Shown: positions 2,474 to 2,493 of the stretch, piece after piece
How the letters are laid out: the number at the start of each line of letters is the position of its first letter
How positions within the stretch are numbered: position 1 is the stretch's first letter
Source of the DNA: Escherichia coli
Lineage (GTDB): Bacteria > Pseudomonadota > Gammaproteobacteria > Enterobacterales > Enterobacteriaceae
Assembly (NCBI RefSeq): GCF_050920415.1
Contig: NZ_CP169309.1
Length of the DNA: 64,000 nucleotides
Strand: one strand, 5' to 3'
Program-made: the position numbers and the translations under genes
Notes under the pieces: model-generated
What the model was told of the DNA's origin: nothing
Databases searched by the model: none
Seen by the model: the letters and a program-made list of their open reading frames with translations, nothing else

Positions 2474-2493
2474 CATTACAAGAATCATGCCAA
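2474..2493 (-). promoter_or_regulatory. Sigma-54 (-24/-12) promoter of pspG
   Basis: Reverse complement reads TGGCAT-GATTC-TTGTA, same GG-N10-TTGT architecture as the pspA sigma-54 promoter; about 30 bp upstream of the pspG start. Confidence 0.7.

What the first reader, a model, noticed from the sequence alone, without database searches (positions are those of the whole stretch)
2474..2493. psp-type sigma-54 promoter upstream of pspG
TGGCAT-N5-TTGTA shares the unusual TTGT -12 element of the pspA promoter, indicating PspF-dependent control of the stand-alone pspG gene. The AT-rich region upstream (2500-2570) probably holds the PspF/IHF sites.
Basis: partly seen in the sequence, partly recalled or inferred. 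Interest (0 to 1): 0.2.

Follow-up and report, generated by a model that had tools for sequence, protein, structure and literature searches.

The report
Known sigma-54 promoter of pspG

Summary
The motif is real. TGGCATGATTCTTGTA lies on the minus strand at 2492..2477, 51 nt upstream of the pspG ATG (2441). The window is an E. coli chromosome (dusA–pspG–qorA). From the dusA stop to the pspG ATG it is identical to K-12 except for one base.

The same 17-mer is a sigma-54 ChIP-seq site in K-12, listed as experimentally confirmed in EcoCyc. The pspA promoter shares the unusual TTGTA -12 element (Bonocora 2015).

In 75 aligned Enterobacterales pspG upstream regions, TGGCAY is kept in 74 and TTGTA in 71.

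Upstream I located three elements:
- An IHF consensus, AATCAATAGATTA, at 2509..2497 (-43..-31).
- A covarying GC hairpin plus T-run at 2545..2520, the dusA terminator.
- A 28-nt conserved block at 2571..2544 (-105..-78), right after the dusA stop.

A weight matrix built from that block in non-Escherichia species picks out the pspA enhancer in K-12 (13.2 bits; 0 of 500 shuffles reach it). I therefore read the block as the PspF enhancer.

The only correction is that 2500–2570 is not uniformly AT-rich, because a terminator with 81% GC sits in its middle.

The only new details are small. This strain has a private C→T change (2547) at an otherwise invariant enhancer position, and the dusA terminator is nested between enhancer and promoter.

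Verdict: already known, low interest.

The parts
2477..2492 (-). Sigma-54 promoter core TGGCAT-N5-TTGTA. GG is at 2491/2490 (-25/-24) and TGT at 2480..2478 (T2478 = -12).
   Evidence: Identical to the K-12 ChIP-seq motif OS40. TGGCAY is conserved in 74 of 75 aligned sequences and TTGTA in 71 of 75.
2466..2466 (-). Predicted transcription start, 12 nt downstream of the -12 T and 25 nt upstream of the ATG.
   Evidence: Inferred from sigma-54 geometry. It equals Bonocora's rule of 19 bp downstream of the motif centre and their listed distance of 25 to pspG. It was not mapped here.
2442..2465 (-). pspG 5' leader with the Shine-Dalgarno sequence GGGAGAG (2452..2446).
   Evidence: Sequence. GGGAGAG is conserved in most orthologous loci.
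2199..2441 (-). pspG coding sequence (80 aa plus stop).
   Evidence: Pfam PF09583; annotation.
2497..2509 (-). IHF consensus AATCAATAGATTA (WATCAANNNNTTR), at -43..-31.
   Evidence: One search finds a perfect match, but 5 matches in the window against 2.17 expected, so the motif alone is weak evidence. The TCAA and TTA columns are conserved in A3 (TTA in 72 of 75; the full consensus in 30 of 75). pspA has ATCAA-N4-ATA at a nearly identical offset.
2516..2545 (-). dusA intrinsic terminator: a 10-bp GC stem (2545..2520) followed by TTTT (2519..2516). It lies between the enhancer and the IHF site.
   Evidence: Terminator scan. Covariation: 96.4% of cells paired, 8 of 10 pairs with changes on both sides, 0 of 500 shuffles reach the observed values, and slid controls give 37-60% paired.
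2544..2571 (-). Candidate PspF enhancer (UAS) TTCACCAAAAAGTAGTCAAATTCATCAC, at -105..-78. It has the TTCRCYA direct repeat spaced 20 bp apart, around a G(T)TAGTC core.
   Evidence: It is the most conserved non-coding block in A3. A PWM from 68 non-Escherichia sequences scores it at 34.7 bits, with the next best position in the window at 3.6. The same PWM finds the K-12 pspA enhancer at L002 1421-1448 (13.2 bits) and 1439-1412 (12.2 bits), and 0 of 500 shuffles reach this.
2547..2547 (-). Strain-private C→T substitution inside the UAS (CACCAC becomes CATCAC).
   Evidence: K-12 has C. The exact 57-mer is found in 1 of 5337 E. coli records. The column is C in 74 of 75 aligned sequences. The PWM score is 34.7 bits against 40.8 for the K-12 allele.
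2575..2577 (-). dusA stop codon, 3 nt upstream of the UAS block.
2032..2142 (-). PspH sRNA region in the pspG 3' UTR, ending at the bidirectional terminator 2041..2063 shared with qorA.
   Evidence: K-12 annotation b4758, mapped through alignment A2 and 100% identical. Terminator. Function from Melamed 2016.

Best explanation
This is the enhancer-dependent sigma-54 promoter of pspG, the second promoter of the PspF (phage-shock) regulon.

Proposed mechanism:
- Sigma-54 RNA polymerase binds TGGCAT-N5-TTGTA (2492..2477) as a closed complex that cannot open on its own.
- A PspF hexamer binds the conserved block at 2571..2544, about 75-105 bp upstream.
- IHF bound at 2509..2497 bends the intervening DNA so that PspF touches sigma-54.
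- PspF uses ATP hydrolysis to open the promoter, and transcription starts near 2466.
- In unstressed cells PspA holds PspF inactive. Membrane stress releases PspF, and pspG is induced together with pspABCDE.
- The dusA terminator hairpin (2545..2520) lies inside the enhancer-promoter loop and separates pspG from dusA transcription.

What is shown here: the motif, its position, its conservation, the resemblance of the upstream block to the pspA enhancer, and the covariation of the terminator. What comes from the literature: sigma-54 occupancy, PspF binding at the pspG UAS, and PspA control. IHF dependence of pspG itself comes only from my memory of Lloyd 2004. What is inferred: the exact start site and the exact limits of the PspF and IHF sites.
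For: - The motif sits at the correct strand and distance from pspG.
- The region is identical to K-12 apart from one base.
- The K-12 sigma-54 ChIP-seq peak has this exact 17-mer, is flagged as confirmed in EcoCyc, and pspG rose on sigma-54 overexpression.
- Salmonella ChIP-chip reports TGGCATGATTTTTGTAAG at pspG, and RpoN gSELEX gives a peak in the dusA>pspG spacer.
- PspF is stated to bind the pspA and pspG UASs, with one UAS at pspG and about 20-fold induction.
- TGGCAY is conserved in 74 of 75 and TTGTA in 71 of 75 aligned sequences, reaching Yersinia, Rahnella and Brenneria.
- The UAS matrix built from pspG orthologues recovers the pspA enhancer.
- An IHF consensus is present and conserved.
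- No sigma-70-like promoter is predicted on the pspG strand between dusA and pspG.
- The terminator covaries.
- pspF is present in 5421 of 5426 E. coli genomes.
Against: - Nothing was measured in this strain.
- The start site is predicted, not mapped here.
- The IHF consensus alone is not statistically unusual in 64 kb, and only 30 of 75 orthologues keep the full consensus.
- The window carries a T at an otherwise invariant C of the UAS, which could weaken PspF binding in this strain.
Confidence: 0.95

Rival explanations
1. The motif is a chance sigma-54-like sequence. In that case pspG would be expressed by read-through from dusA or from an unrecognised sigma-70 promoter.
For: A single match is not significant in 64 kb (0.41 expected). 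dusA is immediately upstream on the same strand in 79 of 80 loci.
Against: The motif is conserved in 74 of 75 aligned orthologous regions. Sigma-54 ChIP-seq, ChIP-chip and gSELEX all report occupancy at this site. A covarying intrinsic terminator separates dusA from pspG. No sigma-70-like promoter is found on the pspG strand in the spacer.
Confidence: 0.02
2. The promoter is sigma-54-dependent but is activated, wholly or partly, by a different enhancer-binding protein such as NtrC rather than PspF.
For: Shimada 2021 lists an NtrC gSELEX peak in the dusA>pspG spacer.
Against: The conserved upstream block matches the pspA enhancer and no other position in the window or in the pspF-pspA region. 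The literature attributes pspG activation to PspF and describes a regulon restricted to pspA-E and pspG. I saw no obvious NtrC-type palindrome in the spacer by eye, but I did not test this formally.
Confidence: 0.03
3. In this strain the enhancer is functionally weakened by the private C→T change at 2547. pspG would then be poorly induced, and the limiting pool of PspF would be redistributed to pspA.
For: The position is C in 74 of 75 aligned sequences and in all other E. coli records that match the 57-mer at 98% identity. The PWM score drops by about 6 bits. Deleting the pspG promoter raises basal pspA more than 3-fold, so the two enhancers do compete for PspF.
Against: The site still scores 34.7 bits, inside the range of natural orthologues (28-47 bits). 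The minus-strand match in the pspA enhancer carries a T at the equivalent place (TTCATCAT). The change could also be an assembly error.
Confidence: 0.25

Closest known systems
E. coli K-12 pspG (yjbO) promoter, pspGp (Lloyd et al. 2004; EcoCyc; Bonocora 2015 site OS40)
   Same: The sequence from the dusA stop to the pspG ATG is the same except for one base. The 17-mer TTGGCATGATTCTTGTA is identical, and so is the predicted start 25 nt from the ATG.
   Different: The only difference is C→T at window 2547, inside the conserved upstream block.
E. coli pspA promoter (pspAp) with its PspF UASs and IHF site
   Same: Both have TTGTA at -12. Both have an upstream TTCRCYA-N-GTTAGTS-N5-CRCYAMC layout with a 20-bp repeat spacing. 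Both have an ATCAA-type element 17-19 bp upstream of the GG.
   Different: The pspA enhancer lies about 13 bp further from the promoter (-127..-91 against -105..-78). It gives two overlapping matrix hits in opposite orientations, in line with the published 'two UASs' at pspA against 'one UAS' at pspG. It is shared with the divergent pspF promoter. pspG has a terminator hairpin inside the loop, and pspA does not.
Yersinia enterocolitica and Salmonella pspG promoters (Green & Darwin 2004; Samuels 2013)
   Same: They have the same TGGCAY-N5-TTGTA core and sit upstream of pspG between dusA and qor.
   Different: The leader is longer in Yersinia, Rahnella, Brenneria and S. enterica subsp. arizonae (75-206 nt from motif to ATG).

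Membership tests
Sigma-54 (RpoN) -24/-12 promoter | GG and (T)GC dinucleotides exactly 10 bp apart within a TGGCAC-N5-TTGCW-like sequence. | tested here: met
   TGGCAT-N5-TTGTA at 2492..2477. The consensus C at -12 is replaced by T, as in pspA.
Sigma-54 (RpoN) -24/-12 promoter | Placed on the correct strand a short distance upstream of a gene, and conserved in orthologous loci. | tested here: met
   It lies 51 nt upstream of the pspG ATG. In the 75-sequence alignment the -24 element is kept in 74 and the -12 element in 71.
Sigma-54 (RpoN) -24/-12 promoter | Occupied by sigma-54 holoenzyme, with transcription lost in an rpoN mutant. | not testable with these tools
   Literature only: ChIP-seq in K-12 on the identical sequence, Salmonella ChIP-chip and gSELEX.
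PspF regulon promoter | An upstream activating sequence related to the PspF sites of pspA, about 80-130 bp upstream. | tested here: met
   The 28-nt block at 2571..2544 (-105..-78). A matrix from non-Escherichia pspG loci hits the K-12 pspA enhancer at 13.2 and 12.2 bits, with 0 of 500 shuffles reaching this. Actual PspF binding was not tested.
PspF regulon promoter | An IHF site between the enhancer and the promoter. | tested here: inconclusive
   A perfect WATCAANNNNTTR match at 2509..2497 with conserved TCAA and TTA columns. However, the motif is not rare in the window (5 against 2.17 expected), and only 30 of 75 orthologues keep the full consensus.
PspF regulon promoter | Induction by secretin or membrane stress, dependent on PspF and repressed by PspA. 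| not testable with these tools
   Stated in papers that cite Lloyd 2004 and Green & Darwin 2004. The primary papers are not held.
Rho-independent terminator (dusA) | A GC-rich stem-loop followed by a T-run just downstream of a stop codon, with the pairing maintained in evolution. | tested here: met
   One search finds a 10-bp stem with 8 GC pairs followed by TTTT. One search finds 96.4% of cells paired and 8 of 10 pairs with compensatory changes.
PspG protein (PF09583) | Full-length match above the Pfam gathering score. | tested here: met
   88.6 bits against a cut-off of 25, covering profile positions 1-64 of 64.

The most novel reading that the evidence does not exclude
Two minor readings are not excluded. 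(a) The strain-private C→T change at 2547 hits an otherwise invariant enhancer base and measurably weakens the pspG enhancer. Because the two psp enhancers compete for PspF, this would shift PspF toward pspA and change the basal Psp set-point of this strain. (b) The conserved placement of the dusA terminator inside the enhancer-promoter loop, with the PspF site 3 nt after the dusA stop codon, couples dusA transcription to PspF occupancy, through a roadblock or through displacement. I do not know whether the primary literature discusses this layout.
Probability: 0.2. Interest if true: 0.3.

Novelty: already known. Interest (0 to 1): 0.08.

Why it matters
For discovery it matters very little, because pspGp is a textbook member of the two-promoter PspF regulon. 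Its value here is as a positive control: a reader working from raw sequence alone identified a real sigma-54 promoter and its regulator. The comparative data add a clean phylogenetic footprint of the whole regulatory region (enhancer, nested dusA terminator, IHF site, -24/-12). They also show that the unusual T at -12 is held across Enterobacterales pspG promoters and is shared with pspA. That would interest only people who study how -12 sequence tunes sigma-54 closed-complex stability.

Tried and rejected
- A plain MAFFT pairwise alignment of the pspG and pspA upstream regions mis-registered the promoters. It aligned pspG's TGGCATG to an unrelated TGGCATG inside the pspA enhancer region. I replaced it with GG-anchored comparison and a position weight matrix.
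- I tried to read the primary papers and could not. Lloyd 2004, Green & Darwin 2004 and Dworkin 1998 are not held. The supplement of Mehta 2013 gave no coordinates for the pspG regulatory deletion. Liu 2019 gave no UAS coordinates.
- The IHF consensus as stand-alone evidence is rejected, with 5 matches against 2.17 expected.
- The 6-bp inverted repeat TGGCAT/ATGCCA flanking the promoter (2492-2471) is not conserved even within Escherichia. I treat it as incidental.
- The Rfam scan found nothing in 2000-2600.
- The sigma-70 scan found no promoter on the pspG strand in the spacer.

Full report
**Observation.** On the minus strand, the window reads TTTTTGGCATGATTCTTGTAATGCC. The core TGGCAT-GATTC-TTGTA occupies 2492..2477. 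It is the only match to TGGCAYN5TTGYW on either strand of the 64-kb window. As a bare pattern it is not significant: 0.41 matches are expected and 35 of 100 shuffles contain at least one.

**Context.** The window is an E. coli chromosome, 100% identical to strain MFDS1022581 (NZ_CP169399.1) over the stretch compared. The gene order is qorA (+), pspG (-), dusA (-).
- The ORF 2441..2199 encodes an 80-aa protein that matches Pfam PF09583 (Phageshock_PspG) over its full length, at 88.6 bits against a cut-off of 25.
- The motif lies on the pspG strand, 51 nt upstream of the ATG.
- With T2478 at -12, the predicted start is 2466. The leader is then 25 nt and carries GGGAGAG as the ribosome-binding site.

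**Already known.** From the dusA stop codon to the pspG ATG, the window is identical to K-12 MG1655 except for one base.
- Bonocora et al. 2015 (PMC4591121) list sigma-54 ChIP-seq peak OS40 with the motif TTGGCATGATTCTTGTA. The downstream gene is pspG, the predicted start is 25 nt from the gene, and the site is flagged "C", meaning experimentally confirmed in EcoCyc.
- The same table lists pspA as TTGGCACGCAAATTGTA. I read the same sequence in K-12. The shared, unusual TTGTA at -12 is therefore real.
- In the same study, pspA and pspG were among only five genes with upstream intergenic sigma-54 sites that rose on sigma-54 overexpression. The authors attribute this to PspF.
- Samuels et al. 2013 found sigma-54 at Salmonella pspG, TGGCATGATTTTTGTAAG.
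- Shimada et al. 2021 found an RpoN holoenzyme gSELEX peak in the dusA>pspG spacer.
- Mehta et al. 2013 state that PspF binds the UASs of the pspA and pspG promoters. They report two UASs and about 100-fold induction at pspA, and one UAS and about 20-fold induction at pspG. Deleting the pspG promoter raised basal pspA more than 3-fold.
- Huvet et al. 2011 and Flores-Kim & Darwin 2012 say the same, citing Lloyd et al. 2004 and Green & Darwin 2004.
- I could not open those two primary papers. My recollection is that Lloyd et al. showed dependence on sigma-54, PspF and IHF, and repression by PspA. That is from memory, not a tool result.

**Independent comparative test.** A scan of one genome per species found 80 loci encoding PspG. 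dusA lies upstream on the same strand in 79 of them, and qor is nearby in 78.
- An exact TGGCAY-N5-TTGYW motif is found upstream of pspG in 75 of the 80 loci. This includes Yersinia, Rahnella and Brenneria, where it sits further from the ATG.
- In a 75-sequence alignment (A3) the -24 hexamer is TGGCAT in 44, TGGCAC in 30 and TGTCAT in 1.
- The -12 pentamer is TTGTA in 71, TTGAA in 2, TTGGA in 1 and TTGCT in 1.
- The T at -12 is thus a conserved property of pspG promoters and not an E. coli accident.

**Upstream elements.** The anchored alignment shows three conserved features.

1. *IHF consensus.* AATCAATAGATTA at 2509..2497 (-43..-31) is a perfect WATCAANNNNTTR match. The pattern is not rare in the window (5 matches against 2.17 expected). 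However, its TCAA and TTA columns are strongly conserved: TTA is kept in 72 of 75 sequences and the full consensus in 30 of 75. pspA has ATCAA-N4-ATA at almost the same offset from the GG, 19 bp against 17 bp.

2. *dusA terminator.* A 10-bp GC-rich stem at 2545..2520 is followed by TTTT, and the terminator scan picks it up. Across the 75 sequences, 96.4% of cells pair and 8 of 10 pairs show changes on both sides. None of 500 shuffles reaches these values, and sliding the register drops pairing to 37-60%. This is the dusA intrinsic terminator, and it lies inside the enhancer-promoter loop.

3. *Candidate PspF enhancer.* The 28-nt block TTCACCAAAAAGTAGTCAAATTCATCAC at 2571..2544 (-105..-78) starts 3 nt after the dusA stop codon. 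It overlaps the terminator stem by 2 nt. I built a weight matrix from the 68 non-Escherichia sequences and obtained these results:
   - The window site scores 34.7 bits, and the next best of 127,946 window positions scores 3.6.
   - In the K-12 pspF-pspA region, the two best hits are L002 1421-1448 on the plus strand (TTCGCCACTTGTTAGTGTAATTCGCTAA, 13.2 bits) and 1439-1412 on the minus strand (12.2 bits).
   - These hits lie at -118..-91 and -127..-100 relative to the pspA start.
   - None of 500 shuffles of that region reaches 13.2 bits; the highest is 8.8.
   - Both promoters share the layout TTCRCYA … GTTAGTS-N5-CRCYAMC, with a 20-bp repeat spacing.
   - The two overlapping, oppositely oriented hits at pspA, against one at pspG, fit the published "two UASs versus one".

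I therefore assign 2571..2544 as the PspF enhancer. PspF binding itself was not tested here.

The stretch 2500-2570 is 48% GC overall. It consists of an AT-rich IHF block (2493-2519, 19% GC), the terminator (81% GC) and the AT-rich enhancer block (2546-2574, 31% GC).

**Mechanism.** This follows the established model for enhancer-dependent sigma-54 promoters and for the Psp system.
- Sigma-54 holoenzyme sits at -24/-12 as a closed complex.
- PspF bound at the enhancer is brought to it by IHF-induced bending and opens the promoter using ATP.
- PspA inhibits PspF until membrane stress releases it.
- The dusA terminator prevents read-through into pspG.
- The pspG transcript should end at the bidirectional terminator 2063..2041 shared with qorA.

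**Rivals.**
- *Chance motif, with read-through or a sigma-70 promoter.* This is contradicted by the conservation, the occupancy data, the covarying terminator and the absence of a sigma-70-like site on the pspG strand in the spacer.
- *A different activator.* Shimada 2021 lists an NtrC gSELEX peak in this spacer. However, the conserved upstream block resembles the pspA enhancer specifically, and the literature assigns pspG to PspF.

**Small new points.**
- *A private change in the enhancer.* The window has T at 2547 (CATCAC) where K-12 has C (CACCAC).
  - The exact 57-mer around it occurs in only 1 of 5337 matching E. coli records, the source strain itself.
  - The column is C in 74 of 75 aligned sequences.
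  - The matrix score falls from 40.8 to 34.7 bits, still inside the natural range of 28-47.
  - It may slightly weaken the enhancer, or it may be an assembly error.
- *The nested terminator.* The dusA terminator sits between enhancer and promoter, and the dusA-pspG-qor arrangement itself is found in 79 of 80 Enterobacterales loci. I do not know whether the literature has commented on the terminator's placement.

**Verdict.** The feature is already known. Interest is low.

Noticed in passing
window 2547 (minus strand, within 2544-2571): A C→T change at an otherwise invariant base of the conserved enhancer block. It is unique to the source strain among 5337 E. coli records, and among 75 aligned sequences only the window carries it.
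   Followed up: yes
window 2032-2142 (minus strand): The sRNA PspH lies in the pspG 3' UTR (K-12 b4758) and is 100% identical to K-12. Melamed 2016 describes it as a sponge of Spf, possibly with its own promoter. No Rfam family covers it. The sigma-54 transcript should read into it.
   Followed up: partly
window 2516-2545 (minus strand): The dusA terminator hairpin is nested between the PspF enhancer and the IHF site and overlaps the enhancer by 2 nt. It shows strong compensatory covariation across Enterobacteriaceae.
   Followed up: yes
window 2157-2178 (minus strand): A short hairpin, CTAAGG-TTTTAT-CCTTAG, lies just after the pspG stop codon and upstream of the annotated PspH 5' end. Seen by eye in alignment A2; not analysed.
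   Followed up: no
window 3973-4977 (minus strand): An AT-rich 334-aa ORF annotated as a DUF2713 family protein lies between dusA and zur. From memory, K-12 has yjbL/yjbM at this position.
   Followed up: no
window 13014-14594 (minus strand): A gene annotated as a SopA family protein (effector-like) lies between ubiC and malM, in otherwise core-genome surroundings.
   Followed up: no
L002 1455-1475 (K-12 pspF-pspA spacer): A second TGGCATG (CCTGGCATGTTGCTGTTG) lies between the pspA enhancer and the IHF region, with no proper -12 element. It caused the pairwise alignment to mis-register.
   Followed up: no
dusA>pspG spacer (K-12 coordinate 4,260,864 in Shimada 2021): An NtrC gSELEX peak is reported in the same spacer as the RpoN peak. 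No obvious NtrC palindrome is seen by eye.
   Followed up: no
window 15903-15973 and 42300-42377 (minus strand); 27812-27961 (plus strand); 29856-30052 (plus strand); 47661-52756 (minus strand): Rfam hits: two naRNA4 (REP-type) elements, STnc430, the lysC lysine riboswitch, and an rrn operon with a spacer tRNA and StyR-44. All are ordinary for E. coli.
   Followed up: no
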